64,000 nucleotides of DNA from a virus, in IMG/VR virus record IMGVR_UViG_3300035703_000080, positions 3,850-67,849 of that record. One strand, 5' to 3'. Positions 7,976-33,225 of the stretch are shown here, piece by piece. The notes beneath the pieces are model-generated. The model was not told the origin of the DNA and ran no database searches. It saw nothing but the letters and a program-made list of their open reading frames with translations. How positions within the stretch are numbered: the first letter of the stretch is position 1; every line of letters begins with the position of its first letter. A program made the translations under genes and the position numbers.

Positions 7976-10829
7976 CTTTTGGTCGGCTGATCATCATTGC
8001 GTGCACGCGCATCTGTGGACCGCGTGTTCTAGACGTCATGTCCTTGCGCAGGAACTTCACCGAGTAACCGTCGAGCCGCTGTATCTGGCGCTTGAAGTCC
8101 TCGTACCCGAACGACAGCGCGACGCAGTGTGACTTCATCACTTGCTCCTCGATGTAGTAGTCGACGTACCCCTTGCGGTCGATCTCGTGCTCCACACGCC
8201 CCATGATGCGGCTGCGCGTGATGGTCTGGTCGACAGTCTCCCCGTTACCCAGTGACGCCAGCAACGACCCGTCGCTCACGCGCACCACCACGAAGTGGCC
8301 GTAGTGCTCCCGGGTGAAGGCGTTGAGCACGTCCTCTGCGGAGCGCACCCCTGCGCGCACAACCTTGCGGGCCTTCTCGACCAGCTTGAACAGGCTGTTG
8401 ATCACGGCGTCCGTCGGGATGTCGACCACGTCCGCGTACTTGCTGGAGGCCAGGATCGCCCCGGCCACCACCGCCGCACAGCCCGCCGCCCAGAACCGCT
8501 CGTCGCCCGACATGCGCCACGTCTGCTTGAGCTGCTCCTCGGCCAGCCGCACCACGCTGCGCGCTGTGTCCTGATGCTGGACGAGCCAGCGCAGGTACTT
8601 CTCCCCCGCCACGCCGTAGTTGCTGTAGAGCAGCTTGAGCGTCTCGGTCTCCTCCGGCGACCAGTTCAGCGCTTCGTTGGGCGTCCACTCCAGCATGCGG
8701 AACAGCTCGCCGTTGGACGAGTGCTGGCGTGAGCCAGACATGTAGTCCTGCATGTGCATGTTGCTGGTCAGGAAGGCCAGCAGGGACCACGACACGTTGT
8801 TGATGCGTTCGCGGTTGGCGTAGACCTCGGACTTCTCCTTGCCTTTGCCCTCCGCCGTGTCGAAGATCAGCCCCGGGAACCACTCCATGTCCTGGCGGGA
8901 CTTGTGCGTGATCTCGTCGCTGACGAACGGCAGGCTGTTGAGGTTGCCCATGCGCTGCTGCATGGTCACGGGGCTGGTGGACTTGCCTGTGCGGTAGTTG
9001 ACCGGGTGCCCCATGATCGACGCGATGGCCGTCAGGGTCAGCGACTTGCCCGTGCCTGACTCCGTGGAGCCCGCATGGAACGTCAACGCGCTCATCTGCG
9101 TGAACCGCATGAGTGGCGAGCCGAACCCGATGCACAGCATCGCCAGCATGTCGTACAGCCGCCGCTTGACCAGCATCTGTGGGAACTTGCGCCAGTTCTC
9201 CAGCGTGCCCATCGGGCGCGTGGCGCGGTTGAGGTTGGCCAGATCCGGCATCGGCACGGTCCGCTCTGTGCCGTTCTGGAAGAACACACGCCCGTTGTAG
9301 ACGAACGTCCCGTCCTCTTGCCACCCGTACTGCTGCGGCACGCGCACCGCCTTCTTGGTCAGGCTCGCCTCCTCCACACAGGCGCGAATGTAGTCGAACA
9401 GGTTCTTGTCGTTGCCTGCACCGAACGAAGCCAGGATGTTCTGCTCGGCCAGCTTCTTGACGCAGTCGTCCTTGCTCACCGTGTACCGCTGCGGCATGAG
9501 GATGTCGACCGGTGCGTCCTTCTTGTTGGCCACCATGTGCACGGTGTGCTCGCCCTCCTTGACCAGCAGGTCGACCACGAACATGTCGTAGGGCAGCAGC
9601 ATGACGTTCTGCTTGCGCTTGGTACCGTCCGCCTCCTCGATGATGCGCTCCACGTAGATGCCGCCGTTGGCCCCGTAGCTGTACCCCTTGGGCGGCGCAG
9701 GGCGCATGACCTTGATGGTCTCGCGCTCTTCGGTGATCTCATCGACCTTGTGGATCTCGACCTCTTTCTCGGCGTTGTCCGCAAGCAGCTCGCGACCCAG
9801 GGCCAGCGGGTTGGTGATGTTGCTCCAGTGCTTGCAGCCGCTGCACACGCCGGGGTTCACCCCTTCGAGCTTCACGCACGAGTACGGCCCCTTGATCTCG
9901 TTCAGCTTCGTCCGCATCCGCGTGTCGTCGTACGGGTGCAGCTTGCTCAACCACACCGCCGCGCGCTCCCCGTCGGTGCAGAACTTGGCTTGCGACAGCA
10001 GCCCGCGCCACAGCGGCTCCATGCCCTCTTCTGCGGCGTGCTCGACGTAGTACGCGAGCTGCGCGCAGCCGTCGCCACGCTTCGTCCGATCGACGATGTT
10101 CTTGAACCTCGACGTCGTGTTCTCGACGAGCTTCACGCGGGTGGGGGAGGCGTTGGTCGGGCGTTGCCCGGGCAGCTCCAGTGCAGGCAGCGCAGGGCCC
10201 GCCAGCGGGTCGGCCTCGACCAGCGCAAAGACCGCGTCGCGCAGCGCCTCGAACGCCACCGGACGCCCCTCCAGCAGCACCTGAACCGGGCGGGGCTTGG
10301 GGTATGCGGGCTTGAAGTTGATCGTCCCCGGGATGCGCAGCACACGTGCGGCGTCGGCGGTGACGGTCATGTCGATGGACAGGTCCCGGGCCTTGCACAG
10401 GCGCTTGAACCGCTCTGCCAACGGGCGCCACTCGGGGATGCTGACCTCGCGGTCGAAGGACCAGTAGCAGTGCAGCCCGCCGCCGCTGGCAACAACCCAC
10501 GGGGCGCCAAAGCGGTGCAGGCCAGTGTCGTCGAGGAACCCGGACAGGGCGTTGGCGGCGTCCTTCTTGGAGGCGTAGCCGTCCATGTCGATAAACAACG
10601 CGCGAACGTAGCGCGCGTTGACTGCTTCTCTGCTTCCTTTGTTCTCGAATGTGGATAGTGCGAAGTAGACATCAAACCCTCTGCCTACCCACGCATCGAT
10701 TGTTTCTTCGTTACTGGCTAAGTCCTCTACGAACACGTGGTCGCGCTTGGGTGCTTTGTACCCTGCAAGACAGTAGTATCCGTGACCGGGTGACGGAAGG
10801 ACAGCCGCTAGAAAATCGAGCGGTTCCAT
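7938..10829 (-). CDS. Primase-helicase fusion (RepB/AEP-like primase + DUF927-type NTPase)
   Basis: Primase motifs FIDMD, SGGGLHCYW, DAARVLRIPGT; Cys cluster CSGCKHW; Walker A ESGTGKS; Walker B-like FVSDE. Confidence 0.85.
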   Translation of the reverse strand: MEPLDFLAAVLPSPGHGYYCLAGYKAPKRDHVFVEDLASNEETIDAWVGRGFDVYFALSTFENKGSREAVNARYVRALFIDMDGYASKKDAANALSGFLDDTGLHRFGAPWVVASGGGLHCYWSFDREVSIPEWRPLAERFKRLCKARDLSIDMTVTADAARVLRIPGTINFKPAYPKPRPVQVLLEGRPVAFEALRDAVFALVEADPLAGPALPALELPGQRPTNASPTRVKLVENTTSRFKNIVDRTKRGDGCAQLAYYVEHAAEEGMEPLWRGLLSQAKFCTDGERAAVWLSKLHPYDDTRMRTKLNEIKGPYSCVKLEGVNPGVCSGCKHWSNITNPLALGRELLADNAEKEVEIHKVDEITEERETIKVMRPAPPKGYSYGANGGIYVERIIEEADGTKRKQNVMLLPYDMFVVDLLVKEGEHTVHMVANKKDAPVDILMPQRYTVSKDDCVKKLAEQNILASFGAGNDKNLFDYIRACVEEASLTKKAVRVPQQYGWQEDGTFVYNGRVFFQNGTERTVPMPDLANLNRATRPMGTLENWRKFPQMLVKRRLYDMLAMLCIGFGSPLMRFTQMSALTFHAGSTESGTGKSLTLTAIASIMGHPVNYRTGKSTSPVTMQQRMGNLNSLPFVSDEITHKSRQDMEWFPGLIFDTAEGKGKEKSEVYANRERINNVSWSLLAFLTSNMHMQDYMSGSRQHSSNGELFRMLEWTPNEALNWSPEETETLKLLYSNYGVAGEKYLRWLVQHQDTARSVVRLAEEQLKQTWRMSGDERFWAAGCAAVVAGAILASSKYADVVDIPTDAVINSLFKLVEKARKVVRAGVRSAEDVLNAFTREHYGHFVVVRVSDGSLLASLGNGETVDQTITRSRIMGRVEHEIDRKGYVDYYIEEQVMKSHCVALSFGYEDFKRQIQRLDGYSVKFLRKDMTSRTRGPQMRVHAMMISRPKDVDSQANEAAVG

Positions 10830-10844
10830 GAAACTTCCCCGGAC

Positions 10845-12837: not shown

Positions 12838-12865
12838 ATTGTACAGGTCACTTCTTGGCCGTCAA
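12838..12865 (-). promoter_or_regulatory. Sigma70-like promoter overlapping a 16-bp operator-like site
   Basis: Minus strand TTGACG-N16-TACAAT; overlaps TGTCTAACATTGTACA (12830-12845). Confidence 0.55.
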
Positions 12866-15292
12866 CCCCCTTTCCGCGATCTCAGACTTGAACAGATCGA
12901 CCAGCAGCCGGTTGTCGTCAACCTTGCCCGCCAGGGCGGCGAACATCTTCTTCTCGACGGGCGAGCCTTGGATGTGGACGACGGTGACCTTGTCGCTGGT
13001 CTGCCCCTTGCGGTCGGCCCGGGCGCAGGCCTGGACGTACTGCTCGACGCTCATCAGCGGGCCGAAGAACACGACGGTGTCCGCCGCAGTCAGCGTGATC
13101 CCGTGCGCAGCCGCCTGGGGCTGCATGACCAGCACGCGCGGATCGGGCAGGGTCTGGAAGCGCTTGATGATGTCGCCTCGCTTGGTGGCCGTCACCCCGC
13201 CGTGGATCTCCTCGCACGCCACCCCGCGCTTGTTGAGGAACACCGAGATCGTCTCGATGGCCGCGCGGAACAGCGCGAACACGATGACCTTGCGGTCGGT
13301 CTCCTCCAGCACCTCCAGCAGCACGTTGAGCCGAGGCGTGGCGTCGAACTCCACCGTCTCCCCGTTGTCCGAGTAAGCCACGCCGCAACTGATCTGGAGC
13401 AGCTTGTTGAGCGCTGCCGCTGCGTTCACTGCCGTGATCGTCTCGCCTGCCGCCTGCGCCACCATCGCCGTCTTCAGCGCGTTGTAGTACTTGGCCTGCT
13501 GCGGGGTCAGCGGCACCTCTCGCGTCATCGTCACGACGGGCGGTAGGTCCAGGCACTGCTCCTTGGTGTAGCGGATGGCAGGCTGCAACGCCCGGTGCAC
13601 GCGGTCGGCGGCGTCGGCCTTGGGCGCCCACTTGAACATGGTGACCTTGTTCATCACCGTGTCGCGCCACGCGGTCTGGAAGGCGGGCACGCCCTTGGGG
13701 TTGACGAGCTTGGCCAGCCCGTAGGCGTCCACGGGCGACTGCGCCGCAGGCGTGCCGGTCATCATCCAGAGATAGGTGTTGGATGTCAGCAGCGAGTTGA
13801 GCACCTTCCACCGCTTGGTCTGCGGGTTCTTGTAGGCGTTGCAGTTGTGTACTACCCAGTGATCCCCAACAAGGTAGTTAGGTGCTCCTTCAACTTCGAG
13901 GTTGAAGACATCGACACCGCTTGGACATTCGATATACGAAACACTTTCCACCCAAGCGTCGCCAGTTTCTCTTCCTTCTTGCGATCCTGCTCTTGCCGTA
14001 TTTTCGCCGTATGGCTGTTGCCGTCCACTTCCAACCCCACCATCTGGTCGGGCCACGCGAAGTCGAGCTTGTAGTTCGTAGGAAAGCCGGGTTGCCTCCC
14101 ACCCAACGCTATTGGGTAGTTCCATACCCACCCCGCAGGCAAGACCTCGGAAATCAGTTGTTCGGCAGGCGTCATGCCCCTGCCGTTGCCGCCCTGTACT
14201 TTCGGTTTGTGCCATCGCGCCTTCAGTGCCGCCGACAGTTTCGCCCGATGCTCCGCTGTTTTCGGGCCTGTAGACTTGCCCCGTTGCTCTGGCGGCATTT
14301 TGTTGAAGTAGCTGGCCCCCGGATTCCGAGAGTGATACCTCTTCCGCGCGCAGGATTTCGAGCAGGTCAGGCCAAGCGGGTGGTTCTTTGCCATACCCCA
14401 AAGTACCCGGTGCCGCATATGGCGGAATTCCTGCCCGCAGGTATGACAGCTCAACACCAGATATGAGCCTTCTTCCCGTAAGATTTTTGGCGCACACCCA
14501 TCCGGCGTCTGTGAAGAAGGGGTGCTCGGGGGTGCATCGCAGTGTTTTTTCGTTTCCAAGACGGACCTCGACAAGTCGCGTAGCGGTATTGCGTACAAGA
14601 CGTTTTATACGTGCTACGCCGTTAGAAGTCAAGACCTTGTCCCCGGGCTGAAGCTGCTCGATTGAGTGTCGCCCCAGCGGCGTGCCCACGAGCGTGCCTG
14701 CCACAAAGCACTCATCGACGATCACGAGGTCGAAGCGCCCGTCGTTCTTCACCTCGGTCGAGATCAGGTCGAGCCCCTCGTAGTTGGTGATGACGATGTC
14801 ATGCCCTTCCTGCACGGCCTCTATGCGGCGCGATGCTTGCGCATGGTGGGCCACGATGGCGCTGCGGTGAATGACGGAGTTGCCGATGTCTTGCATCCAC
14901 GCGCTGTGCATGATCGACATGGGGCACAGGATGAGCACGCGCCGCACATCCCCGCGCGTCATCAGGTAGTCCGCCGCCCACAGCGCCGACAGCGTTTTGC
15001 CCGTCCCCGGCTCCGACAGCACGAACGCCCGCCGGTTGAGCGTGAGGAAGCTCGCTGTCTCCTGCTGGTGCGCCATCGGCTTGAAGCGCCCGGGCCAGTC
15101 GTAGCGCCCGTAGATGGGAGAGGGGACGTTGCGCACGCCCAGGTTGCGCAGGACCCGCGCTTCGTCCAAGCCCCAGTAGACCGCGATCTCGTAGCCCCCC
15201 GGGATCGGGAAGGCCTTGTGCTTGGGGATGATGCTGTACCGTTGCGGGTGCTGTGTCCTGAACAACAGGATCTTGTTTTCTACGATTTGCAC
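12848..15292 (-). CDS. SNF2/SF2 DNA helicase containing an intein
   Basis: Walker A EPGTGKT; Walker B VIVDE interrupted by an intein; MTGTP, HGITLT and QACARADRKGQ motifs. Confidence 0.9.
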   Translation of the reverse strand: MQIVENKILLFRTQHPQRYSIIPKHKAFPIPGGYEIAVYWGLDEARVLRNLGVRNVPSPIYGRYDWPGRFKPMAHQQETASFLTLNRRAFVLSEPGTGKTLSALWAADYLMTRGDVRRVLILCPMSIMHSAWMQDIGNSVIHRSAIVAHHAQASRRIEAVQEGHDIVITNYEGLDLISTEVKNDGRFDLVIVDECFVAGTLVGTPLGRHSIEQLQPGDKVLTSNGVARIKRLVRNTATRLVEVRLGNEKTLRCTPEHPFFTDAGWVCAKNLTGRRLISGVELSYLRAGIPPYAAPGTLGYGKEPPAWPDLLEILRAEEVSLSESGGQLLQQNAARATGQVYRPENSGASGETVGGTEGAMAQTESTGRQRQGHDACRTTDFRGLACGVGMELPNSVGWEATRLSYELQARLRVARPDGGVGSGRQQPYGENTARAGSQEGRETGDAWVESVSYIECPSGVDVFNLEVEGAPNYLVGDHWVVHNCNAYKNPQTKRWKVLNSLLTSNTYLWMMTGTPAAQSPVDAYGLAKLVNPKGVPAFQTAWRDTVMNKVTMFKWAPKADAADRVHRALQPAIRYTKEQCLDLPPVVTMTREVPLTPQQAKYYNALKTAMVAQAAGETITAVNAAAALNKLLQISCGVAYSDNGETVEFDATPRLNVLLEVLEETDRKVIVFALFRAAIETISVFLNKRGVACEEIHGGVTATKRGDIIKRFQTLPDPRVLVMQPQAAAHGITLTAADTVVFFGPLMSVEQYVQACARADRKGQTSDKVTVVHIQGSPVEKKMFAALAGKVDDNRLLVDLFKSEIAERGLTAKK
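13844..14710 (-). mobile_element. Intein (289 aa) in the helicase Walker B motif
   Basis: N-terminus CFVAGTLVGTPLG, block B CTPEHPFFT, block F/G VFNLEVEGAPNYLVGDHWVVHN, Cys +1. Removing it restores VDECNAYKN. Confidence 0.95.
13852..14598 (-). CDS. Vsr/DUF559-like PD-(D/E)xK endonuclease nested in the +1 frame of the helicase intein (start uncertain)
   Basis: CHTCGQEF...TCSKSC zinc finger, KTAEHRAKLS NUMOD3-like motif, YKLDFAWPDQMVGLEVDGNSH...DRKKEEKLATLGWKVFRISN nuclease core. Confidence 0.85.
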   Translation of the reverse strand: MYAIPLRDLSRSVLETKKHCDAPPSTPSSQTPDGCAPKILREEGSYLVLSCHTCGQEFRHMRHRVLWGMAKNHPLGLTCSKSCARKRYHSRNPGASYFNKMPPEQRGKSTGPKTAEHRAKLSAALKARWHKPKVQGGNGRGMTPAEQLISEVLPAGWVWNYPIALGGRQPGFPTNYKLDFAWPDQMVGLEVDGNSHTAKIRQEQDRKKEEKLATLGWKVFRISNVQAVSMSSTSKLKEHLTTLLGITG

Positions 15293-15305
15293 ATTTGCTC
15301 CTGCG

Positions 15306-15566
15306 TCACTTCATCGAGTGATCCTTGTTGCGCTTGAACGTCCGGTTCTTGCTTGCCGGTACAACCGACAAGTTCCCCGGGGATGTCTTGCCGCCCTTGC
15401 TCAGCGGCGTCTTGTGGTGCACGTCTTTCCCATCTCCTTTCTGGACTTTGCCTGCGGCCATCATCTGACGCCGCGCCTTGTTCCGTTCAGCGCGAGCCTT
15501 CTTGGCTTTCTCTGTCTGGTCGTAGGCGGGATAGGTATCTCGATCGTTCATGTCCTTGTACGGCAT
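15306..15566 (-). CDS. Small HNH-motif protein
   Basis: DVHHKTPLSKGG...NLSVVPASKNR; SD AGGAGG. Confidence 0.75.
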   Translation of the reverse strand: MPYKDMNDRDTYPAYDQTEKAKKARAERNKARRQMMAAGKVQKGDGKDVHHKTPLSKGGKTSPGNLSVVPASKNRTFKRNKDHSMK

Positions 15567-15574
15567 AAGCCCTC

Positions 15575-16243
15575 CTAATGTTCAGGATGAAACACGCAAG
15601 TCTTGACCGGGCACCACCCGCACAGCGGGCTCTGCGACGGGTTCCACACGTCGTTGGCGTGCGCTGCTTCGAGCTTCGCCACCCGCTCTCGGTACTTCCA
15701 CCACGCCGCCTCGGCCTCCTCACGCTCCATGCGGTGCTTGAACATGCTGCCCTTGACGATGAACATCAGGGCGGAGGACACGCGCCGGATGTGGGGGAAG
15801 TGCGTGAAGACCATCAGCGACATCAGCATGAGCTGGTCTTTGTCCGGGTACTTGTCGTTACCCGTTTTCCAGTCCACGACCCGCGCCGTCAGGTTGTCGT
15901 CGTTGATGATCAGCAGGTCTGCGATGCCCCGGACCCAGCGGTCCTTGGCGTCGAACGCGCAGGGCCTGAGGTCCGCCGTGACGCCCATCTCATGCTCGAA
16001 CAGCTTGCGCCCAGGGTGCGCCAGCACCGCGTCCACAACAGGCTGGAAGCCCGCCAGTGCCGGGGGCAATGGCGTGTTGTCCTTGCCGTACAGCTCGATG
16101 GCCTTGTGTACGTCCTTGCCGTAGATGGTGTGCTTGGTGTCCTTGAACGGGAACTTCTTGAGCACCTTGACTTCGTGGTAGCGCCGTGCGCAACCCTCGA
16201 AATCCTTGAGCCCGCTGTGCGACCATGTGATGGGAGTTGTCAT
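15575..16243 (-). CDS. PD-(D/E)xK (Cas4/RecB-like) exonuclease
   Basis: WSHSGLKDFEGC, RGIADL, VDWKTG and C-terminal CGWCPVKTC motifs. Confidence 0.85.
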   Translation of the reverse strand: MTTPITWSHSGLKDFEGCARRYHEVKVLKKFPFKDTKHTIYGKDVHKAIELYGKDNTPLPPALAGFQPVVDAVLAHPGRKLFEHEMGVTADLRPCAFDAKDRWVRGIADLLIINDDNLTARVVDWKTGNDKYPDKDQLMLMSLMVFTHFPHIRRVSSALMFIVKGSMFKHRMEREEAEAAWWKYRERVAKLEAAHANDVWNPSQSPLCGWCPVKTCVFHPEH

Positions 16244-16542
16244 CAGAACTTAGCCGAGAGGATGGCTTTGTTGAGCAGGCCGGAGAACTGGGTCACGAAC
16301 GCTTCGTCGTTGTGCAGCGGACTGCCCATCTCGTGAAGAATGGCATGCGTCAGCTCATGCCAGAACGTGTCGTAAAGCTCCTCGCGCTTGAACGCGCGGC
16401 CCGTGAAGTTGCTGTGCGTGACGACGTCGATGTACTTGGCGTCGTAGTTGACCTCACCAACCGTGAATCGCTTCCTCGGCTTGGCGCGCTGGTTGATGAT
16501 GTACAGCTTCTTGCCGACCTTGATTTGCTTTGGTATCTGCAT
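16243..16542 (-). CDS. Small zincin-like metallopeptidase-fold protein
   Basis: HExxH motif WHELTHAILH. Confidence 0.7.
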   Translation of the reverse strand: MQIPKQIKVGKKLYIINQRAKPRKRFTVGEVNYDAKYIDVVTHSNFTGRAFKREELYDTFWHELTHAILHEMGSPLHNDEAFVTQFSGLLNKAILSAKF

Positions 16543-16738
16543 ACAGTGCTTTCTCCTTTTCGTCCATCAACTTGAGCACATGCTGAAGCATGCGCGCTTC
16601 TGCCCCGAGTTCAATCGCCGCGTCTCGGGCTTCTGAGTACCTGTGCTCTAGGCACAGGTCGTGTGTGCGCTTGAGCATCTGCTCCATGCGAATCATGGGC
16701 GCGGCGTAATCAACGATGTCAGTCTTTTGCAAGTCCAT
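16454..16738 (-). CDS. Hypothetical protein (MDLQKTDIVDYA...)
   Basis: Overlaps the polymerase stop; its C-terminal part overlaps the next gene and may be a spurious extension. Confidence 0.55.
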   Translation of the reverse strand: MDLQKTDIVDYAAPMIRMEQMLKRTHDLCLEHRYSEARDAAIELGAEARMLQHVLKLMDEKEKALYADTKANQGRQEAVHHQPARQAEEAIHGW

Positions 16739-19598
16739 AGCGTTTGTGCACGCCCCCGCTTGCCGATAGCGGAATCCCCGGCAAGTATGGAGGCTCAATA
16801 GTCATCTGCGCCAAGACCCATGTCTTGGCGTCATCCGCTTCGCTCTCCGGCGCGACTGCGATGGCCTCGTCATGCACCGTGCCCGCCACAGGGTAGCGTT
16901 TGTCGATGCGTAGCATGCCGTCGGTCATCACGATCCGTGCGGTGCCTTGGACACAGTTGTGTACTATGAAAGGGCCTGTGGCTCCTTTGACAACGAATCT
17001 GTTTCTCGGGCCACAGTTGACAATATCGTACACCTGTTGCTGAACGAGGGCGGCAGCGTCAGCAGTTCCACGGGCCAGCCCGATTTGAGTCGGTTGTACA
17101 ACGTAGTTCTCCCTATGCCCGTAGCCGCGCTTAGCGCAGGTACGTCTACCGCCCGAACTGTTGTGCGTTTGTTCATAGAATTCGTCTGCCGAGACACCCA
17201 CCGACAGTTCTCCGGCGAGTACGGGCCGTTGTTGTCCATACGATCCAAGTCCAAGCCTCGCGCATACGTAGCGCCCATGTCTTCCCAAAAAGCCGCGAAG
17301 CTGTTGCGCCATCTCTCGCAAACGTACACCCCCCTTGCGCCATAGTTTTTGTACGCTGCTTCCGCCTTGCTGTAACACCGCGCATGCATGTTGCGCCAAA
17401 CGATATAGGCGGGGTGCCGGCTCATACCGTGCGTGGTGTTCTTCTCCCCTATCAGCCGCCGCGTCATACAACCGCAGTTCGGAATCCCCCCGCGTTTGGT
17501 TTCTTTCGTTACGTCTGCGCCGAGCTTCACTGTCTGCGCACCGCATTCGCAGCGGAAGCGCCATTTCCACGACTTCCCGGTGGACGCCTCCGGGTGCAAC
17601 GCCGTCAACATGCCGAAGGTCTGGCCGGAAAGGTTCTTGAACTTGTGATGCGGCTTCCCATCCATGATCTGTGAGAACGAGGTGTTCCGGGGTAATGAGG
17701 ACGCCGTCCACGGTAACACAACCCTGAACTCCGGTCAAGATCTTCCCCGCATGCCGCACGAACTCCACCCCGTCGTGCACCAAGTCTTGCGGTTCGACGC
17801 TCTCTATGGGCACCCAGCCTCGCGCAGTAAGCACGGGCGTTCCTGCGGCCAAGCAGTTGTTGGTGATCTTCCCGGCGTACAGCTTCGACCGCTTCTTGCC
17901 GTCTGCGTACGTCCACTGGATGCGCCGCCCGTCGCCTTCGGGCTTGAGGTCAGGATACCGCAAGCTCATGCCGTTTGGCAAGACGATCTCCTCCTTGCGG
18001 AAGGTCAGGCACTTGTGGCGGTACTCGTTGCCCTTGAACAGGCTGTGGGTGATGAGGTTCTGGAAGAGTTCCCACAGACGCACGACGGGCTGCGCCGTGG
18101 CGCGGTACCGGGTGATGATGGCCTGAGCGGCGAGGCAGTGGATGAGCAGCTCCTGCGCCGTGCAGGAGTGCGGGATGGCCTCCATCGCCTTGACGAGATG
18201 CTCGGAGCCGATGAAGACGTCGACGTCGCGTGACGTCACGCCGAGCTGCCGCGCTTCTGCTTTTGTGTACCTTTTAGGTGGTGCACCGAGGAAACCCGTC
18301 AATAATTGTGCCGCGAAACTTGCCCACCCCAATTGGTACCCGCACCCAAGCAAAGCAGACTTTGCACTTTGTCTCTCCACCGGATGAGAGTCTTTAGTCA
18401 TACCGGGTATATTGAACATGCCCGCGCCGAATGTGGCGTAGGGGTCGCCGCCACCCTTGAAGATGTCGAGCAGCGTGCCGTAGTCGGCCAGCCACGCCAG
18501 CACGCGCGGCTCGATCTGGGACAGGTCTCCCACCACCAGCACGTGGCCCTCGGGGGCGGTGATGGCCTTGCGCAGGAAGCTCCCGCGCTTGAGGTTCTGG
18601 AGGTTGATCTGACTGCCCTTGCTGGCCGTGTACCGGCCCGTGGCGGCGCCGTAGTAGTTGACCGGGAAGGGCAGCGGCCCGCGCCGCGAGATGTCGAGGA
18701 ACCGTTGCGCACGGGTGCGCTGGAGCGTGGACTTGACCATCAGCCGCGCCTCGCACAGCAGGGCGACGGCCTCGTTGTCGGAGTTCATCATCGCCTGGAA
18801 CAGCGCGTCGTTCTTGGCGAACGCGAACGTCTTCTCCCCGGTGGTCTTGCTGACCTTCGTCGGCGGCTCGACGCCCATGCCCTCCAGCACGGCGGCGAAC
18901 TTGTCGTTGGACGCCAGCGCCGCCTCCTCCACGCCCAGGCGTGTGAGCAGCTCCTCCCGTGCTTGGCGCTCTTCCTCGATGGCGGGCTCCAGCATCGCCC
19001 CGTCCAGCACCAGCAGCGGGCGCGTGTACATGCGCAGGGTCAGGTCGATCAGGCGCAGCTCCTTGGACGGGTACCCGGGCAGCATGCGTAGGAAGATCTG
19101 CTCGCACAGCCACGTGTCGTGCTTGCAGTAGTCGGCCAGCGTCTGCTCGACGTCGAAGGGCAGCTCGTCGAGGATGTTCTCGGACGGGCTGAGCCCGTCT
19201 CCCTTGGGCGGCAGACCGTAGCGCTCGGCCAGCACCTTCAGGCTGTTGCCCACCTCGACGCCGTGCAGGGCGCGGCCCATGCTGAGCGTGTCGAACATGA
19301 AGCACGGCTGCACGCCGTAGTGCCACGACAGGATGCTGCCGTCGAACTGGGTGTTCTGGCAGACGAGCGCGGTACGCGTCCAGTCGATGCTGTCCGCCCA
19401 GTCTTGGATGCCGTTGCGGCGGACCCAGACGGCCTTGTTGTCCGTCCCGACCTCCTTCCACGACAGGCCCCACGCCTTGAAGCGCGGGTCGCGCAGGTAC
19501 TCCTCGTTGGTCTGGCACGAGAACCCGAGCTTGACCTCGCGCCCCCAGGACGTCTCGAAGTCCACCGCCAGTATGCGGTCGAATGGCGGCTTGCTCAA
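16719..19598 (-). CDS. polA: Family A DNA polymerase with 3'-5' exonuclease, containing an intein
   Basis: Exonuclease motifs DFET, NTQFD, YCKHD; motif A DLSQIEPR, motif B RQSAKSALLGCGY, motif C TVHDEA. Confidence 0.95.
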   Translation of the reverse strand: MSKPPFDRILAVDFETSWGREVKLGFSCQTNEEYLRDPRFKAWGLSWKEVGTDNKAVWVRRNGIQDWADSIDWTRTALVCQNTQFDGSILSWHYGVQPCFMFDTLSMGRALHGVEVGNSLKVLAERYGLPPKGDGLSPSENILDELPFDVEQTLADYCKHDTWLCEQIFLRMLPGYPSKELRLIDLTLRMYTRPLLVLDGAMLEPAIEEERQAREELLTRLGVEEAALASNDKFAAVLEGMGVEPPTKVSKTTGEKTFAFAKNDALFQAMMNSDNEAVALLCEARLMVKSTLQRTRAQRFLDISRRGPLPFPVNYYGAATGRYTASKGSQINLQNLKRGSFLRKAITAPEGHVLVVGDLSQIEPRVLAWLADYGTLLDIFKGGGDPYATFGAGMFNIPGMTKDSHPVERQSAKSALLGCGYQLGWASFAAQLLTGFLGAPPKRYTKAEARQLGVTSRDVDVFIGSEHLVKAMEAIPHSCTAQELLIHCLAAQAIITRYRATAQPVVRLWELFQNLITHSLFKGNEYRHKCLTFRKEEIVLPNGMSLRYPDLKPEGDGRRIQWTYADGKKRSKLYAGKITNNCLAAGTPVLTARGWVPIESVEPQDLVHDGVEFVRHAGKILTGVQGCVTVDGVLITPEHLVLTDHGWEAASQVQEPFRPDLRHVDGVAPGGVHREVVEMALPLRMRCADSEARRRRNERNQTRGDSELRLYDAAADRGEEHHARYEPAPRLYRLAQHACAVLQQGGSSVQKLWRKGGVRLREMAQQLRGFLGRHGRYVCARLGLGSYGQQRPVLAGELSVGVSADEFYEQTHNSSGGRRTCAKRGYGHRENYVVQPTQIGLARGTADAAALVQQQVYDIVNCGPRNRFVVKGATGPFIVHNCVQGTARIVMTDGMLRIDKRYPVAGTVHDEAIAVAPESEADDAKTWVLAQMTIEPPYLPGIPLSASGGVHKRYGLAKD
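16956..17855 (-). mobile_element. Intein (300 aa) in DNA polymerase
   Basis: CLAAGTPVLTARGWVPIE, block B ITPEHLVLTDHGW, VYDIVNCGPRNRFVV...FIVHN, Cys +1. Removing it restores KITNNCVQGTAR. Confidence 0.95.
16964..17665 (-). CDS. HNH homing endonuclease nested in the +1 frame of the polymerase intein
   Basis: NLSGQTFGMLT, WRFRCECG, NCGC, THGMS, WRNMHARC, YGARGVYVCERW, LDRMDNNGPYSPENCRW and a C-terminal HTH (GIGRTTLYNRLKSGW). Collinear with the free-standing HNH at 46517-47116. Confidence 0.9.
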   Translation of the reverse strand: MDGKPHHKFKNLSGQTFGMLTALHPEASTGKSWKWRFRCECGAQTVKLGADVTKETKRGGIPNCGCMTRRLIGEKNTTHGMSRHPAYIVWRNMHARCYSKAEAAYKNYGARGVYVCERWRNSFAAFWEDMGATYARGLDLDRMDNNGPYSPENCRWVSRQTNSMNKRTTVRAVDVPALSAATGIGRTTLYNRLKSGWPVELLTLPPSFSNRCTILSTVARETDSLSKEPQALS

Positions 19599-26433: not shown

Positions 26434-26492
26434 AGATACCTCCGGTGGTTGGGGGAAGGGATGGGGGACATGTGTCCCCCGGGAGAAAGGCT

Positions 26493-26825
26493 TCAGTCCG
26501 CGTTGACGTAGGCGCACTGCGCCTCCAGCCAGTGCTCGACGAGCGACATGTGCTCAGCGCTCACGGTCCAGCGAGGCGCGCCTGCGTGCAGGCACAGCGG
26601 CATGCCGGGGTGGTCGCGGGTCAGGATGGTCGGCGCGCCGTAGCGGCTGACGAACTGGCCCCACGGGCCGAACTTGGTGAGGCTCTGCTCGGCGTCGTAG
26701 AACTCCACGAGCGGCATGTCTTCGGCATGCTCGATGACGTTGTTCAGGCCGTAGCGCTCGCCCTTCCAGACGATGCGCACGGTCCACGGGCCGATGCGGG
26801 CGGTGGTGTGACGGGTGGTGTCCAT
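26493..26825 (-). CDS. Hypothetical early protein (110 aa)
   Basis: SD AGGAG; VRIVWKGERYG and VEFYD...GQFVSRY motifs; flanked by palindromes. Confidence 0.7.
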   Translation of the reverse strand: MDTTRHTTARIGPWTVRIVWKGERYGLNNVIEHAEDMPLVEFYDAEQSLTKFGPWGQFVSRYGAPTILTRDHPGMPLCLHAGAPRWTVSAEHMSLVEHWLEAQCAYVNAD

Positions 26826-26915
26826 GATGCTCCTGTGAAAAAGGGGGACACATGTCCCCCGGGGTTACGCTTCTGGGGATGGGTTAGCATTAGCGTTGCT
26901 TAATGGGGATCTCCT

Positions 26916-27479
26916 ATGATGAAGCTGAAGGTGGGCGCGGTGCGCGGGGACGGGAAGGTCTTTCGCGGCTACCGCAAAGGGGCCAACGGCCTGCTTGAGC
27001 ACTGGGTTTCCGCCGAAGCGTTTGAACGCAGGCGGCTGCGGATCAACGAACTCAACCGGGCGCGGGCGCAAAGGCTGCGTAGCAGCCCTGAAGGACGCGC
27101 AAACATGAACGCGCGGTGGGGCGAATACATGCGTTTGTCTCGTCAGAAGAATCCAATTGTGCATATGCTCGCAAGAGCAAAAGCACGCGCGAAAGCCAAA
27201 GGCATGGTGTTTGCGTTGACTAAAGAAGACGTTGTTGTTCCTTTGGTTTGCCCTGTTTTGGGCATCGCACTGTATGTAGGCAGCGGCACGGCCAGCGATC
27301 ACTCTCCTGAACTTGACCGCATCGACAATACGAAGGGTTACGTAAAGGAAAATGTGCTGGTTGTATCGCGCCGTGCCAACAGAATAAAGAATGATGCGAC
27401 ACTAGCGGAACTCGAACGAGTAGCCGCTTTTTACCGCACGTTTACGCAGCCAGGGCGATCTCAAGCGCACGGCTCTTAG
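26916..27479 (+). CDS. Free-standing HNH-type endonuclease, antisense to the early region
   Basis: AKARAKAKGMVFALT...CPVLG...SPELDRIDNTKGYVKENVLVVSRRANRIK; lower GC than neighbours. Confidence 0.85.
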   Translation: MMKLKVGAVRGDGKVFRGYRKGANGLLEHWVSAEAFERRRLRINELNRARAQRLRSSPEGRANMNARWGEYMRLSRQKNPIVHMLARAKARAKAKGMVFALTKEDVVVPLVCPVLGIALYVGSGTASDHSPELDRIDNTKGYVKENVLVVSRRANRIKNDATLAELERVAAFYRTFTQPGRSQAHGS

Positions 27480-28434
27480 CCGCATCTCCGGGACCCCACA
27501 AAGTTGACGCCAAACGGTGTTCAGAAGAGTGTGCACGTACTTCGTGATCAAAGTACTGTGTGCACGCGTTCAGCCAGCCCCAGGCCGTACCGCGCGCAGT
27601 CTCCAGCATGGCGCCCTTGCCTGCGCCTGCGAACAGGCTCATGACAGAGGCGAAGCCACGGGACTCGCGCACCTTGTCGGCATCGGACTCGGCGCCCTTC
27701 TTGAACAGCGCCACGGTCATCTCCTCGGCCCGCCTGGACTCGACACGGATGGCGGCGAGCTTGCGCGACGTCTCCATGAAGGTGCCGAACTCGGCGTGGG
27801 CGGTCTCGATGACAGCGCGGAACTTCTCGGGCTTCCACTCCGAGCGGTGGGTCACACGGAAGGCAGTAGCGCCCTCCTGCGCCATGCGCAGCGTGTTGTT
27901 GCACACCACGCGCACCGTCGTCCACCGACCCTCGGTGGCCAGCGAGCCGTCAGCGGAGGTGCTGAGCAGGGCGTAGGGCACGACCTTGTCCCGGGAGCCG
28001 TCCACGCACACGCCCTCGGCCAGCTTCGCCGTGGCGAAGTAGCGCTTGCCGCCGAACAGCACGCCTGCCGACTCGATGGTGAGTCCGCCTGCGTCCGCCC
28101 ACTCGCGGAAGAACTCCAGCACCTCCTGGGGCTGCACGACCTTGTAGCCGTCGCTGACCACGCCCAGGGGGGCGTGCGTGTCCGAGCGGAACAGCACGAC
28201 CTTGTCCTCGACTTGGCGCAGGGAGGTGGCGGGGATGTGCGAGGCGGCGGGGTCGATGCGCTCGATGGCGTACCGGGGGTACGCACGCTGGACCTTGTAG
28301 CCCATCCCGGCAGCAGCCGCCCAGGCGGCGAGGTCTGCGCCTGCGGGCATGAGCTGCCCCAGGCCGTGCCACTCGCGCTGAGTGGAGGCGTAGGAAGCGG
28401 CGGCGCGGGAGGTGGTGTCGATCATGTGAGCCAT
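27442..28434 (-). CDS. DUF932/DUF945 family protein
   Basis: WHGLG, LGVVSDGYKVVQ, IESAG, TTVRVVCNNTL and GTAWGWLNA motifs. Confidence 0.85.
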   Translation of the reverse strand: MAHMIDTTSRAAASYASTQREWHGLGQLMPAGADLAAWAAAAGMGYKVQRAYPRYAIERIDPAASHIPATSLRQVEDKVVLFRSDTHAPLGVVSDGYKVVQPQEVLEFFREWADAGGLTIESAGVLFGGKRYFATAKLAEGVCVDGSRDKVVPYALLSTSADGSLATEGRWTTVRVVCNNTLRMAQEGATAFRVTHRSEWKPEKFRAVIETAHAEFGTFMETSRKLAAIRVESRRAEEMTVALFKKGAESDADKVRESRGFASVMSLFAGAGKGAMLETARGTAWGWLNACTQYFDHEVRAHSSEHRLASTLWGPGDAAKSRALEIALAA

Positions 28435-28524
28435 TACTTTCTCCTTGCTGCGGTGCAGCATTGCTTGCCCCTGGGCCGCAGGGGCGACGGTTGGGGGACA
28501 GGTGTCCCCCGTGTCCAAGGCTTG

Positions 28525-28553
28525 ACTATATCAGGTTCCTGAACCTGTGGGAA
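28525..28553 (-). promoter_or_regulatory. Sigma70-like extended -10 promoter
   Basis: Minus strand TTCCCA-N17-TATAGT with TGn; the spacer is itself an inverted repeat (CAGGTTC-CT-GAACCTG); abuts operator-like site 28512-28527. Confidence 0.55.
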
Positions 28554-28584
28554 GGGGTTCCTGCGTCTGTGCCGCTGCGCGGCT

Positions 28585-28977
28585 TCAGACGCTGATGCTG
28601 AGGGTCGCGCCGTTCAGCAGCTTCTGGACCATCTCCTCGATGTCGTCGTTGTCGCCGTGCGTGCGGTTCTCCTCGTGGTTGTCGATGGCCGTTTCGATCA
28701 GGGAGTGGACGTCGTCCTCGTCGAGGTGGTCCGCGTTCTCCAGATGGGCGTCGATGGCGTCCGCCGTGCGCGTCTGCACGAAGCACTCGATGCGGTGCCA
28801 GAAGGACTCGGCGTTGTCGAGGTAGGCGGACACCGCCTCCTCCATCTGCGGAGCAGGCGCAGCCTGGACCTGCGCGAGCTGCACCTCCAGGGCGGCGATG
28901 CGCTCCACGAGGGGCTTGGTGGCCTCGGCCACGGCGGTGGTGAGGGCTTGGGTGAGGATGGTGTTGATGTCGATCAT
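28585..28977 (-). CDS. Acidic hypothetical early protein
   Basis: SD AAGGAG; Asp/Glu-rich C-terminal half. Confidence 0.65.
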   Translation of the reverse strand: MIDINTILTQALTTAVAEATKPLVERIAALEVQLAQVQAAPAPQMEEAVSAYLDNAESFWHRIECFVQTRTADAIDAHLENADHLDEDDVHSLIETAIDNHEENRTHGDNDDIEEMVQKLLNGATLSISV

Positions 28978-29026
28978 GGTGCTTTCTCCTTGGTGAATGG
29001 GGGACACATGTCCCCCGGGGTTGATA

Positions 29027-29314
29027 TCAGGCGTGAGCCTGGGTTGTGGCGGGCTCGTTCACGGGGACCCACACGAGGTCGACCACGGCGGGGAAGAACT
29101 CGATCTCTTCGGGCGAGGCGGAGCCGAACGGCCTGACGTACACGCGCCCGCTGCTGCTGGGCTTGTGCGGGGCGGCGCCCCCGGAGACGACGAACTTCTC
29201 GCCACGGAACGACGTGACCACGCGGCCCACGCCGATGGCTTTGTTGCTCGTGCCACTGCCCGGGCGCAGCACACACTGGCGCCCTTGATAGTCGGTCGAG
29301 ATGATGGTAGGCAT
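29027..29314 (-). CDS. Hypothetical early protein (MPTIISTDY...)
   Basis: SD AAGGAG; VTSFRGE...APHKPSSSGRVYV...FFPAV motif. Confidence 0.65.
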   Translation of the reverse strand: MPTIISTDYQGRQCVLRPGSGTSNKAIGVGRVVTSFRGEKFVVSGGAAPHKPSSSGRVYVRPFGSASPEEIEFFPAVVDLVWVPVNEPATTQAHA

Positions 29315-29328
29315 GATGGAGACTCCTT

Positions 29329-29634
29329 TCACTTGCTGGTCTTGTGCGCAGACAGGCGCACGGCTGCGTAGGGCTCGCCTACGGTGGTGTGGGCGGTGAT
29401 GAGCTGGCGTGAGGGCTGGAACCGCATGGCGATGGTCTGCCAGTCGGTGGTCGAGCGTCCCTCGCACAGCGACACCGTGGCGCGGTGCGTGGTGCCCATG
29501 ATGACGGGCTGCTCGGCGCTGGTGAGGAACTGCTTCAGCTCGGCCTCCTCCTTCTGGAGCGTGGCGATCTGCGCCTTGACGAGCGCGAGCCGGTCGACGG
29601 CGGTGACGAGGATGTGTGGCGTGTCGTTGTGCAT
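29329..29634 (-). CDS. Hypothetical early protein
   Basis: SD GGAGGT; VDRLALVKAQIATL coiled coil. Confidence 0.65.
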   Translation of the reverse strand: MHNDTPHILVTAVDRLALVKAQIATLQKEEAELKQFLTSAEQPVIMGTTHRATVSLCEGRSTTDWQTIAMRFQPSRQLITAHTTVGEPYAAVRLSAHKTSK

Positions 29635-29727
29635 GGATACCTCCAGTGGGTTGGGAAAGGAAGGGGATGGGGGACACATGTCCCCCGGGGTTAGCGCAGG
29701 CTCACGCCTGCGGGCTCAGGCGCAGGC

Positions 29728-29984: not shown

Positions 29985-29986
29985 TC

Positions 29987-31295: not shown

Positions 31296-31355
31296 GCTTG
31301 CTTTCTCCTTCAGTTGAAACGGGGGACAAATGTCCCCCGGCAGGCTACGCGTGCG

Positions 31356-33136: not shown

Positions 33137-33225
33137 GCATTTCTCCTTGCGGGGGACATTTGTCCCCGGATTTTCCGGGGATTTTTGAGGAATTTTTCTA
33201 AGGGTAAACCCTGACAAACGCTTGA

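What the first reader, a model, noticed from the sequence alone, without database searches (positions are those of the whole stretch)
13842..16966. Both hidden nucleases stop at an identical 13-mer that also encodes the intein C-terminus
Seen: the helicase intein ends tgg gTA GTA CAC AAC TGc and the polymerase intein ends ttc aTA GTA CAC AAC TGt. The shared TAGTACACAACTG (13842-13854 and 16954-16966, minus strand) places the +1-frame TAG at the same offset, three codons from the splice junction. GTA and ATA codons appear rare in the surrounding GC3-rich host genes. Inference: codon choice is selected so the overprinted gene ends inside the element whatever the extein, making the unit portable. 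The motif could also be a recombination point for swapping nuclease cassettes.
Basis: partly seen in the sequence, partly recalled or inferred. Interest (0 to 1): 0.8.

Follow-up and report, generated by a model that had tools for sequence, protein, structure and literature searches.

The report
Hidden nuclease stop inside intein end
Two self-splicing inserts (inteins) in a phage's helicase and polymerase genes each hide a DNA-cutting gene in a second reading frame, and both hidden genes end at a stop codon built into the intein's last codons; that stop is a real, partly conserved feature, but the identical 13 letters are mostly a by-product of a shared protein motif.

Summary
TAGTACACAACTG occurs only twice in the window, and each copy ends a +1-frame nuclease ORF four codons before the HN|C splice junction.

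The 13-mer encodes block G ([I/V]-V-H-N) plus TG of the +1 Cys. An NTA codon at -4 followed by the G of Val makes the TAG. This is the last place where an intein ending h-V-H-N can hold a +1 stop.

- **Vsr-like family (helicase intein).** All 80 viral relatives examined are overprinted in +1. Of 62 distinct sequences, 43 stop at this site. Host-frame synonymous sites are frozen up to the TAG and free just after it.
- **HNH family (polymerase intein).** The stop wanders between -3 and -24.
- **Ordinary inteins.** They also carry NTA at -4 (13 of 39), mostly AT-rich ones and none of 10 at GC3 0.5 or above.

Given a TAG in both inteins, the other shared bases match by chance about 9% of the time. 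Nothing supports a recombination point.

Out-of-frame intein nucleases are already published, and this scan has noted them on other DNA, including a CTA-made TAG. This is a new detail of a known kind, of moderate interest.

The parts
12848..15292 (-). SNF2-type helicase precursor ORF (814 aa), continuous through the intein
   Evidence: Translation has no stop. Pfam SNF2-rel_dom E 4.1e-22 and Helicase_C E 5.7e-16.
13844..14710 (-). Helicase intein, 289 aa, inserted after Walker B (motif II) DE. It starts with Cys and ends VVHN, followed by Cys +1.
   Evidence: Bounds. Hint_2 scores 31.7 bits (cut-off 28.4); Intein_splicing scores 35.0 bits, just under its 35.8 cut-off. Of 80 close helicase relatives, 78 read DE|ANAYKN with no insert.
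13852..14457 (-). Vsr-like (DUF559 / EDxHD-type) homing-nuclease gene in the +1 frame. The open frame reaches back to 14598. The likely start is GTG 14457 or TTG 14454, after a purine-rich GGGAAGAAGG (inferred). The stop is TAG 13854-13852.
   Evidence: Host-frame synonymous freezing begins at about codon -216 to -205 and ends at the TAG.
13842..13854 (-). 13-mer, copy 1: the last two bases of codon -4 (GTA), then V-H-N, then TG of the +1 Cys codon. Its first three bases are the nuclease's stop.
16719..19598 (-). Family A DNA polymerase precursor ORF (959 aa), continuous through the intein
   Evidence: Translation has no stop. Pfam DNA_pol_A E 8.5e-21.
16956..17855 (-). Polymerase intein, 300 aa. 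It starts CLAAGT and ends IVHN, followed by Cys +1.
   Evidence: Bounds. Its N-terminal 78 aa are 35% identical to the helicase intein. Of 44 polymerase relatives, 37 read KITNN|VVQGTA with no insert. No Pfam intein model reached E 0.01.
16964..17665 (-). HNH homing-nuclease gene in the +1 frame. ATG 17665 lies in the codons for D-H-G-W just after block B. The open frame reaches back to 17719. The stop is TAG 16966-16964.
   Evidence: (phrog_374, E 4.1e-55). In 27 of 79 viral relatives the nuclease is embedded the same way.
16954..16966 (-). 13-mer, copy 2: the last two bases of codon -4 (ATA), then V-H-N, then TG of the +1 Cys codon. Its first three bases are the nuclease's stop.

Best explanation
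The 13-mer is the coding sequence of the intein's last four residues ([I/V]-V-H-N, block G) plus the first two bases of the obligatory +1 Cys codon. Its TAG is the true stop codon of each nested nuclease gene. The stop forms when codon -4 (Leu, Ile or Val) is spelled NTA and is followed by the G of the Val codon.

GTN-CAY-AAY followed by a Cys, Ser or Thr codon cannot form a +1 stop. This is therefore the last exit: the last position where a +1 ORF can end before it runs into host sequence. That is why unrelated nested nucleases converge on it.

The two inteins reached this site by different routes.
- **Vsr-type element (helicase).** The nuclease's last ~30 residues are truly overprinted on splicing blocks F-G. 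Both frames are under selection, and the -4 TAG is the modal, selectively kept end.
- **HNH-type element (polymerase).** The nuclease ends functionally before block F. Its tail is run-on and the stop drifts among hydrophobic codons. This phage's clade happens to use the last exit.

The remaining identical bases come from invariant residues spelled with common codons (CAC, AAC, and GTA at about one third). The TG belongs to a Cys that arrives with the intein.

Shown: the anatomy, the conservation, the synonymous-site pattern and the sporadic distribution. Inferred: separate translation of the nucleases from internal starts, homing, and a fitness cost of running into the extein.
For: **Anatomy.**

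**The nucleases are real.**. A profile of the Vsr-type alignment hits PDB 3hrl (E 2.8e-6) and 3r3p, I-Bth0305I (E 0.009). The best Foldseek match of the model is 3r3p (probability 1.00, TM-score on the target 0.58), with Vsr 1cw0 at rank 5.

**The two-frame layout is conserved.**
- 27 of 79 relatives of the HNH nuclease lie in the +1 frame of a long ORF. In the other 52 that frame is closed (51) or the locus is too short to tell (1).
- 80 of 80 relatives of the Vsr-like nuclease are embedded in +1. They were found with patterns outside the tail.

**Position of the stop.**
- Vsr-type, 62 distinct sequences: -4 in 43, -8 in 7, -16 in 3, -18 in 4, in the extein in 5.
- Codon -4 is CTA 28, TTA 14, GTA 2, ATA 2 of 55. 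Codon -3 is GTC 19, GTA 18, GTG 9, GTT 8, ACT 1.

**Synonymous-site profile, 27 helicase-type inteins.** Mean third-base entropy at conserved 4-fold codons:
- N-extein: 1.63 bits (6 columns)
- Intein N-splicing part: 1.41 bits (31 columns)
- Nuclease body: 0.24 bits (19 columns)
- Blocks F-G: 0.55 bits (10 columns)
- After the TAG and in the C-extein: 1.68 bits (19 columns)

**HNH-type, 17 distinct sequences.** 4- to 6-fold sites in the last 26 codons carry 1.3-2.0 bits. Stops lie at -23 (3), -22 (4), -13 (3), -12 (5), -11, -8, -5 and -4 (6).

**Controls on ordinary inteins.** NTA at -4 occurs in 13 of 39 overall, and in 0 of 10 with GC3 of 0.5 or more. Only 5 of those 10 have any +1 stop in their last 24 codons. 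By comparison, all 16 distinct dual-coding inteins with GC3 of 0.5 or more do (my hand count).

**Portability.** Vsr-type elements sit after Walker B in SNF2 helicases, ResIII/DEAD helicases and one large terminase.

**Recent arrival.** 78 of 80 helicase relatives and 37 of 44 polymerase relatives lack the intein, including relatives 97-99% identical. They have Ala, Val or Ile where the intein-bearing allele has Cys.
Against: - Counts are not corrected for shared descent. At 70% nuclease identity the 62 Vsr-type sequences form 41 clusters. Only 22 of these contain a -4 TAG member, and 5 contain a member that runs 3-30 codons into the extein. Run-on is therefore tolerated.
- Synonymous resampling with each intein's own codon usage gives at least one +1 stop in the last 24 codons in most trials. 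The probability of no stop was 0-0.58 per locus, and under 0.16 in 18 of 22. The chance that all 22 distinct loci have a stop is 0.044 without phylogenetic correction. For the HNH family, chance alone nearly suffices.
- +1 stops are about as dense in exteins (0.039 per codon) as in intein tails (0.057 per codon).
- In AT-rich ordinary inteins NTA at -4 is common: 11 of 19 at GC3 below 0.40. In the motif-based sample, dual-coding inteins (8 of 15) and ordinary inteins (13 of 39) do not differ significantly (p 0.22).
- AlphaFold gives the nuclease tail (residues 233-248) pLDDT below 50. Its conservation might therefore be a nucleotide-level constraint rather than a protein-level one.
- No Foldseek match reached E 0.001.
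- I have no expression, splicing or cleavage data. No sigma-70-like promoter was found inside either intein.
Confidence: 0.68

Rival explanations
1. Pure by-product. Hydrophobic beta-strand codons (NTN followed by a purine-starting codon) in blocks F-G make +1 stops so often that any overprinted ORF ends there by chance. On this view neither the TAG nor its place is under selection, and the shared 13-mer is coincidence.
For: - Resampling null.
- 32 of 39 ordinary inteins already have a +1 stop in their last 24 codons.
- The stop wanders and synonymous sites are free in the HNH family.
- L006 carries the same 13-mer although its nuclease ORF already ended at -13.
- The residual match has a probability of about 0.09.
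Against: - In the Vsr family A at the third base of codon -4 is seen in 46 of 55 sequences, against 18 of 55 next door.
- The usually rare CTA is the main codon there, 28 of 55.
- Synonymous constraint ends exactly at the TAG.
- GC-matched ordinary inteins have NTA at -4 in 0 of 10 cases and any tail stop in only 5 of 10.
Confidence: 0.2
2. The 13-mer is a recombination or exchange point at which nuclease cassettes are swapped between inteins.
For: The only support is that two different nucleases end at identical bases in one genome, and that inteins with similar block F-G sequences can carry either nuclease type.
Against: - Identity does not extend beyond the 13 bases, and an automatic DNA alignment did not even pair the two copies.
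- The inteins share only 78 N-terminal residues at 35%, and the nucleases share nothing.
- L413 (Vsr-like) and L430 (HNH-like) share only their last 27 residues, not the N-terminal splicing domain.
- A 13-base match that encodes an invariant motif is expected in many unrelated inteins. 76 of the 234 probe hits are intein-like ends.
Confidence: 0.03
3. The frozen bases in blocks F-G and at codon -4 reflect a nucleic-acid element, for example an RNA structure or a protein-binding site that controls nuclease or host expression, rather than the nuclease's protein tail and stop.
For: The predicted tail is low-confidence. Two further frozen GTA codons lie far upstream of the nuclease start, at -258 and -251 (GTA in 21 of 22 sequences each).
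Against: The frozen host third positions are exactly those that fix a hydrophobic pattern in the +1 peptide (K-L-K-x-H-L-T-T-L-L). Positions where the +1 residue varies are free: G-25 at 1.9 bits, V-22 at 1.3 bits and G-15 at 1.3-1.4 bits. I did not fold the region or test covariation.
Confidence: 0.07

Closest known systems
Fractured genes: split inteins with a free-standing Vsr-like or GIY-YIG endonuclease gene between the halves (Dassa et al. 2009, PMC2677866; passages read)
   Same: The nuclease family is the same (Vsr-like) and the elements are mainly in phages. Host genes are DNA-metabolism genes. In 15 of their loci the 3' end of the endonuclease gene overlaps the downstream C-intein coding region by 6-69 bp.
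   Different: Here the host gene is not split. The host frame stays open through the nuclease gene. The overlap covers the whole C-terminal splicing module and ends 8 nt before the junction.
Non-canonical actinobacteriophage inteins (Gosselin, Arsenault and Gogarten, bioRxiv 10.1101/2025.01.02.630785; passages read)
   Same: The homing endonuclease is encoded in a reading frame other than the intein's. The in-frame middle is featureless. The authors propose origin by invasion of a free-standing endonuclease gene.
   Different: They report an endonuclease VII-like gene in frame 3 and antisense LAGLIDADG or VSR-like genes. [quoted passage not shown] Here sense-strand +1 Vsr-like and HNH genes run through blocks F-G.
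Cyanobacterial dnaX intein with an out-of-frame LAGLIDADG endonuclease (Phillips, DeSimone and Gogarten, bioRxiv 10.64898/2026.09.14.751524; abstract, Results and one Discussion section read)
   Same: Selection depends on the frame: synonymous changes in the host frame drop over the overlapping endonuclease ORF. Alleles with and without the intein coexist.
   Different: The nuclease family (LAGLIDADG), the frame as they label it (+2) and the host (bacterial) all differ. The sections I read say nothing about where the ORF stops.
ShiLan element: out-of-frame HNH endonuclease inserted in phage methylase genes (PMC11855218; passages read)
   Same: The hidden nuclease ORF is self-contained. Its TAA lies within the last four bases (TAAC) of the insertion, and the host frame is kept open.
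   Different: The element has no splicing domains, so it is not an intein. The nuclease is in the third frame. Its stop is not nested in a conserved catalytic motif.
Hamiltonella phage APSE-1 DNA polymerase P45 with nested CDS P46, annotated 'HNH endonuclease' (NC_000935.1; annotation seen)
   Same: It belongs to the same HNH family (40.7% identity to the window's nuclease), in the +1 frame of a PolA intein at the same site.
   Different: Its stop is a TGA at -23 in block F, and codon -4 is ATT. This shows that the stop position is not fixed in this family.
I-Bth0305I, prototype of the EDxHD (Vsr-like) homing endonucleases (PMC3239194, passages read; PDB 3r3p)
   Same: It is the best structural match of the model and is also a sequence-profile hit. 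The conserved E...D-G-x-x-H...D core is present.
   Different: It is encoded in a group I intron as an ordinary ORF and overprints no host protein motif.

Membership tests
Intein (Hint-fold protein-splicing element) | Nucleophile (Cys, Ser or Thr) as first residue; C-terminal His-Asn followed by Cys, Ser or Thr at +1 | tested here: met
   The helicase intein reads CFVAGT...VVHN|C and the polymerase intein CLAAGT...IVHN|C.
Intein (Hint-fold protein-splicing element) | Match to curated Hint or intein profiles | tested here: inconclusive
   Helicase intein: Hint_2 scores 31.7 bits, above its 28.4 cut-off; Intein_splicing scores 35.0, under its 35.8 cut-off. Polymerase intein: no intein model at E 0.01 or better. 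It is 35% identical over 78 aa to the helicase intein, and both carry T-P-E-H where I recall block B to lie.
Intein (Hint-fold protein-splicing element) | Precise in-frame insertion relative to uninterrupted alleles of the host gene | tested here: met
   78 of 80 helicase relatives read DE|ANAYKN and 37 of 44 polymerase relatives read NN|VVQGTA (or similar) with no insert. One relative of each carries the intein. One helicase locus and six polymerase loci were undetermined or truncated.
Intein (Hint-fold protein-splicing element) | Protein splicing activity | not testable with these tools
   Inferred only, because both host genes are essential replication genes.
[quoted passage not shown] | Complete nuclease ORF in another frame, wholly inside the intein, with the host frame kept free of stops | tested here: met
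   The layout is conserved in 27 of 79 HNH relatives and 80 of 80 Vsr-like relatives. In free-standing relatives the corresponding frame is closed.
[quoted passage not shown] | Purifying selection on the overlapping frame (loss of host-frame synonymous change over the nuclease ORF) | tested here: met
   Mean 4-fold entropy is 0.24 bits over the nuclease body and 0.55 bits over blocks F-G, against 1.41-1.68 bits elsewhere. This is from 27 helicase-type inteins.
Vsr-like / EDxHD homing endonucleases (DUF559 fold) | Profile similarity and conserved catalytic core (E, D, H, D) | tested here: met
   DUF559 scores 27.8 bits, above its 20.6 cut-off. 21 of the 31 +1 ORFs that end at the motif match DUF559. 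E190, H196 and D205 are invariant in 15 sequences. PDB 3hrl E 2.8e-6 and 3r3p E 0.009. The assignment of catalytic roles comes from PMC3239194 and was not tested.
Vsr-like / EDxHD homing endonucleases (DUF559 fold) | Vsr-type nuclease fold | tested here: inconclusive
   The model has mean pLDDT 70, with the core at 80-93. The top Foldseek matches are 3r3p (TM-score on the target 0.58, E 0.017), then Vsr 1cw0 and 3hrl. None reaches E 0.001.
HNH homing endonucleases | Profile similarity to HNH endonuclease families | tested here: met
   phrog_374 E 4.1e-55 and four further PHROG nuclease families (three HNH, one annotated restriction endonuclease) below 1e-25. No Pfam family at E 0.01 or better. 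I did not examine the catalytic residues.
Fractured gene (split intein with a free-standing endonuclease gene) | Host gene broken into two ORFs by the endonuclease gene | tested here: not met
   Both host ORFs are continuous. All 80 Vsr-type relatives have a host ORF of at least 300 codons that spans the nuclease.
Either nuclease as an active homing enzyme | Cleaves the intein-less allele and promotes copying of the element | not testable with these tools
   The only evidence is indirect: the inteins are absent from relatives that are 97-99% identical.

The most novel reading that the evidence does not exclude
A large, so far undescribed lineage of phage inteins is an obligate two-frame module. 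It had 280 relatives in one viral collection, and all 80 that I examined were overprinted.

In this reading, the C-terminal splicing blocks F-G and the conserved C-terminal peptide of a Vsr-like (EDxHD) homing nuclease are written on the same bases and co-evolve. The nuclease's stop is fixed at the last position that the invariant V-H-N allows. The element therefore carries its whole gene, start to stop, together with the +1 Cys, between Walker-B sites of SNF2 helicases, ResIII/DEAD helicases and terminases.

This would be the missing contiguous intermediate in the route from free-standing nuclease to intein domain that Dassa et al. proposed.
Probability: 0.4. Interest if true: 0.6.

Novelty: new variant of a known kind. 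Interest (0 to 1): 0.42.

Why it matters
Inteins with out-of-frame nucleases have only lately been recognised, and annotation usually misses them. The Vibrio phage CP-T1 helicase, for example, carries an unannotated nested ORF.

This case shows where and how such a nested gene ends: at a stop codon built from the codons of the intein's catalytic end. In one abundant family the splicing module itself is dual-coding and under selection in both frames. Three uses follow.
- **A search rule.** Look for a long +1 ORF that ends in NTA-G four codons before HN|C.
- **A selection signature.** Host-frame synonymous freezing switches off at the TAG.
- **A test of an evolutionary model.** It bears on how free-standing homing nucleases become parts of inteins.

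It also warns that an exact repeat over a conserved protein motif is weak evidence for a DNA-level function.

Tried and rejected
- **Shuffle statistics.** I rejected these as the null, because both copies encode the same motif.
- **Near-identical phage records.** None found.
- **Recombination-point idea.** Rejected.
- **Common ancestry of the two inteins as the cause of the repeat.** Rejected: similarity is confined to the N-terminal blocks.
- **Internal promoters or terminators.** No sigma-70-like site in either intein. The three terminator-like hits in the helicase intein are all on the opposite strand.
- **Control with a broad alignment of 22 ordinary intein ends.** The tool found it not conserved enough. 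I replaced it with a 7-sequence alignment. The control therefore covers only inteins ending ANG-h-h-VHN. From that control I dropped 19 matches whose host frame was open for fewer than 250 codons, 6 duplicates and the query's own contig.
- **Junction finding in the Vsr set.** One search missed 9 of 80 loci. One search, with a looser rule, missed 1 (L374).
- **Scripts.** The script used a wrong spacing and caught only 5 sequences; one search corrected it (25 sequences), then stopped with an index error after printing all the rows I used. One search found nothing for the same reason and one search corrected it.
- **Gorbalenya 1998 (Non-canonical inteins).** Not held. I know it only through citations in the papers I read.
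- **Supplements.** Supplementary files of the papers are closed. Those of Gosselin et al. and Dassa et al. may list overlaps or stop positions that I could not see.
- **Print status.** My statement that a conserved +1 stop inside block G and a sense-strand +1 Vsr-like gene in a contiguous intein are not in print rests on the searches and on the passages read.
- **Not done.** No RNA reads, complex prediction or large protein-database searches; they would not have changed the verdict.

Full report
**What is there.** The window is most of a 67.8-kb viral record. On the minus strand lie an 814-aa SNF2-type helicase ORF (12848-15292) and a 959-aa family A DNA polymerase ORF (16719-19598). Both are continuous.

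Each ORF is interrupted by an intein. The helicase intein is 289 aa (14710-13844), reads CFVAGT...VVHN and is followed by Cys. The polymerase intein is 300 aa (17855-16956), reads CLAAGT...IVHN and is followed by Cys. The bounds are confirmed by uninterrupted alleles. Of 80 close helicase relatives, 78 read DE|ANAYKN; of 44 polymerase relatives, 37 read NN|VVQGTA or similar, including relatives 97-99% identical. One relative of each carries the intein, and the rest were undetermined or truncated.

The exteins have GC3 near 0.9 and the inteins 0.4-0.6. Both inteins therefore look like recent arrivals.

**The hidden genes are real.** In the host frame the middle of each intein is featureless. 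The +1 frame of the helicase intein (13852-14598) matches DUF559, the Vsr-like nucleases, above Pfam's cut-off. A profile of it with 14 relatives hits PDB 3hrl and the homing endonuclease I-Bth0305I. That enzyme is also the best structural match of an AlphaFold model whose core scores pLDDT 80-93, although no Foldseek match reaches E 0.001.

The +1 frame of the polymerase intein matches PHROG HNH family 374 at E 4e-55. Its ATG at 17665 lies in the codons for D-H-G-W just after block B. The Vsr-like gene probably starts at GTG 14457 or TTG 14454, behind a purine-rich stretch. This start is inferred.

**The observation.** TAGTACACAACTG occurs exactly twice, at the stated coordinates, and both +1 ORFs end with its TAG. 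In both inteins the TAG straddles codons -4 and -3 and ends 8 nt before the junction. GTA and ATA are rare in host-like genes (2.5% of Val and 1.9% of Ile codons), but they make up a fifth to a third of Val and Ile codons inside the inteins.

The shuffle test overstates the surprise. Given the shared residues and the inteins' own codon usage, 13 identical bases have a probability of about 0.018. Given a TAG at -4 in both, the three other free positions match with probability about 0.09.

**Why this position.** After codon -4 the intein reads GTN-CAY-AAY and then a Cys, Ser or Thr codon. None of the +1 triplets across these codons can be a stop. An NTA codon at -4 followed by the G of Val is therefore the last place where a +1 ORF can end before it enters host sequence. 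This follows directly from the genetic code and the invariant motif.

**Relatives of the HNH element.** Of 79 viral loci that encode relatives of the polymerase-intein nuclease, 27 have it in the +1 frame of a long ORF, down to 37% identity. In the other 52 that frame is closed (51) or the locus is too short to tell (1).

All embedded ORFs end inside the last 24 intein codons, at offsets from -3 to -24. In 17 distinct sequences with the same spacing, the host-frame synonymous sites of blocks F-G are free (1.3-2.0 bits) and the stops scatter over eight positions. One relative, L006, has the very same 13-mer although its ORF already ended at -13. APSE-1, where the nested gene is annotated, stops at -23.

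Synonymous resampling shows that a stop somewhere in the last 24 codons is expected in most trials. In this family the tail is run-on and the stop drifts.

**Relatives of the Vsr-like element.** I used the 13-mer, extended to its two 14-base forms, as a probe. This returned 234 loci, with the scans capped. Of these, 76 are intein-like ends, and 39 of the 76 carry a +1 ORF of at least 150 codons. Of the 31 distinct +1 ORFs of at least 100 codons that end at the probe's TAG, 21 match DUF559 and about 8 match HNH families.

Because the probe conditions on the motif, I searched again with an alignment of the nucleases. That search used patterns in the catalytic core only. It found 280 relatives, and all 80 that were kept are embedded in the +1 frame of a long host ORF.

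Among 62 distinct sequences the ORF ends at -4 in 43, at -8 in 7, at -16 in 3, at -18 in 4, and in the extein in 5. Codon -4 is mostly CTA or TTA, while Val -3, His -2, Asn -1 and the +1 codon use all their synonyms. The third base is A in 46 of 55 sequences at -4, against 18 of 55 at -3. The exact 13-mer is only one spelling among many: 17 of the 80 loci by my count.

In 27 helicase-type members, mean third-base entropy at conserved 4-fold codons follows this course (details):
- 1.41 bits in the N-terminal splicing domain
- 0.24 bits over the nuclease body
- 0.55 bits over blocks F-G
- 1.68 bits straight after the TAG and in the C-extein

In this family the nuclease's last ~30 residues (K-L-K-x-H-L-T-T-L-L) are truly overprinted on the splicing blocks, and the TAG is the real, selectively kept end of the gene.

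The caveats matter. At 70% identity the 62 sequences form 41 clusters, of which only 22 contain a -4 TAG member, and 5 contain a run-on member. The predicted tail is also low-confidence.

**Control.** A search with the pattern ANG[VIF][LVI]VHN gave 55 distinct usable intein ends: the query's own contig, 15 with a long +1 ORF and 39 without. I had dropped 19 short host frames and 6 duplicates. The 15 dual-coding ORFs end at -4 (7), -16 (4), -18 (3) and -30 (1), and none runs into the extein.

Ordinary inteins have NTA at -4 in 13 of 39 cases. By GC3 this is 11 of 19 below 0.40, 2 of 10 at 0.40-0.50 and 0 of 10 at 0.50 or above. Only 5 of those last 10 have any +1 stop in their last 24 codons. 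At the GC content of this window's inteins the NTA codons are therefore unusual for an ordinary intein. In AT-rich phages they are commonplace.

**Portability and swapping.** Vsr-type elements sit just after Walker B (motif II) in SNF2 helicases, ResIII/DEAD helicases and one large terminase. Empty alleles have Ala, Val or Ile where the intein-bearing alleles have Cys. The TG at the end of the 13-mer thus belongs to a residue that travels with the element.

I found nothing in favour of a recombination point. The flanks of the two copies are unrelated, the inteins share only N-terminal blocks, and the nucleases share nothing. A Vsr-bearing and an HNH-bearing intein with similar ends share only their last 27 residues.

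**Comparison with what is known.** Out-of-frame or antisense nucleases in inteins are in print:
- The dnaX intein, which the papers I read attribute to Gorbalenya 1998. I could not read that paper itself.
- Actinophage inteins (Gosselin et al.).
- The cyanobacterial dnaX intein (Phillips et al.).

The Vsr-like family is known from split-intein "fractured genes", where the endonuclease's 3' end overlaps the C-intein by 6-69 bp (Dassa et al.). [quoted passage not shown]

This scan has also noted the two-frame layout on other DNA, including one note of a CTA-made TAG 8 nt before the junction.

In the searches I ran I did not find three things:
- a sense-strand +1 Vsr-like gene in a contiguous intein
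- the overprinting of blocks F-G
- the conserved last-exit stop

**Verdict.** The stop inside the intein end is real and, in one of the two families, selectively kept. The identical 13 bases are largely motif plus common codons. The recombination idea is unsupported. I rate it a new variant of a known kind, of moderate interest.

Noticed in passing
L491, L495 (helicase) and L571, L573 (polymerase): the same two viral contigs in both searches: The nearest relatives of this phage (97-99% identical in both genes) lack both inteins. This genome therefore gained both elements recently, or its relatives lost both.
   Followed up: partly
L498 (helicase relative) and L576 (polymerase relative): These intein-free alleles nevertheless have Cys at the +1 position (DE|CNAYKN and NN|CVQGAA), where other empty alleles have Ala, Val or Ile. 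They may be footprints of precise intein loss.
   Followed up: no
window 14615-14617 and 14594-14596 (-), codons -258 and -251 of the helicase intein: Two Val codons in the N-terminal splicing domain are frozen as GTA in 21 of 22 relatives, far upstream of the likely nuclease start. In the window the first forms a +1-frame TAG with the next codon. Unexplained; no promoter consensus was found there.
   Followed up: partly
L490 (Vibrio phage CP-T1, NC_019457.1, helicase gp10) and other Vibrio phage records: Cultured phages carry the same Vsr-like +1 ORF inside a helicase intein. In CP-T1 only the helicase is annotated, and its nested ORF stops at -16.
   Followed up: partly
L421, L440, L442, L460 (and L150): HNH-like +1 ORFs of 260-350 codons lie in inteins whose C-extein starts C-[VAG]-[IV]-[IL]-D-D. 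This is a further host context for dual-coding inteins, and two of the four end at the -4 TAG. I did not identify the host gene.
   Followed up: no
L105, L121, L127, L149, L199/L206, L201, L237/L250, L243/L248, L245: Intein ends bearing the 13-mer that lack a long +1 ORF but have long +2 or antisense open frames (177-314 codons). These may be other non-canonical nuclease layouts or GC-driven open frames.
   Followed up: no
window 10590-10830, 18255-18420, 26463-35221, 45021-46514: Other first-reader notes on this window (recoded patches, a repeated 18-bp palindrome, LDLxF peptide units) were listed. I did not examine them.
   Followed up: no
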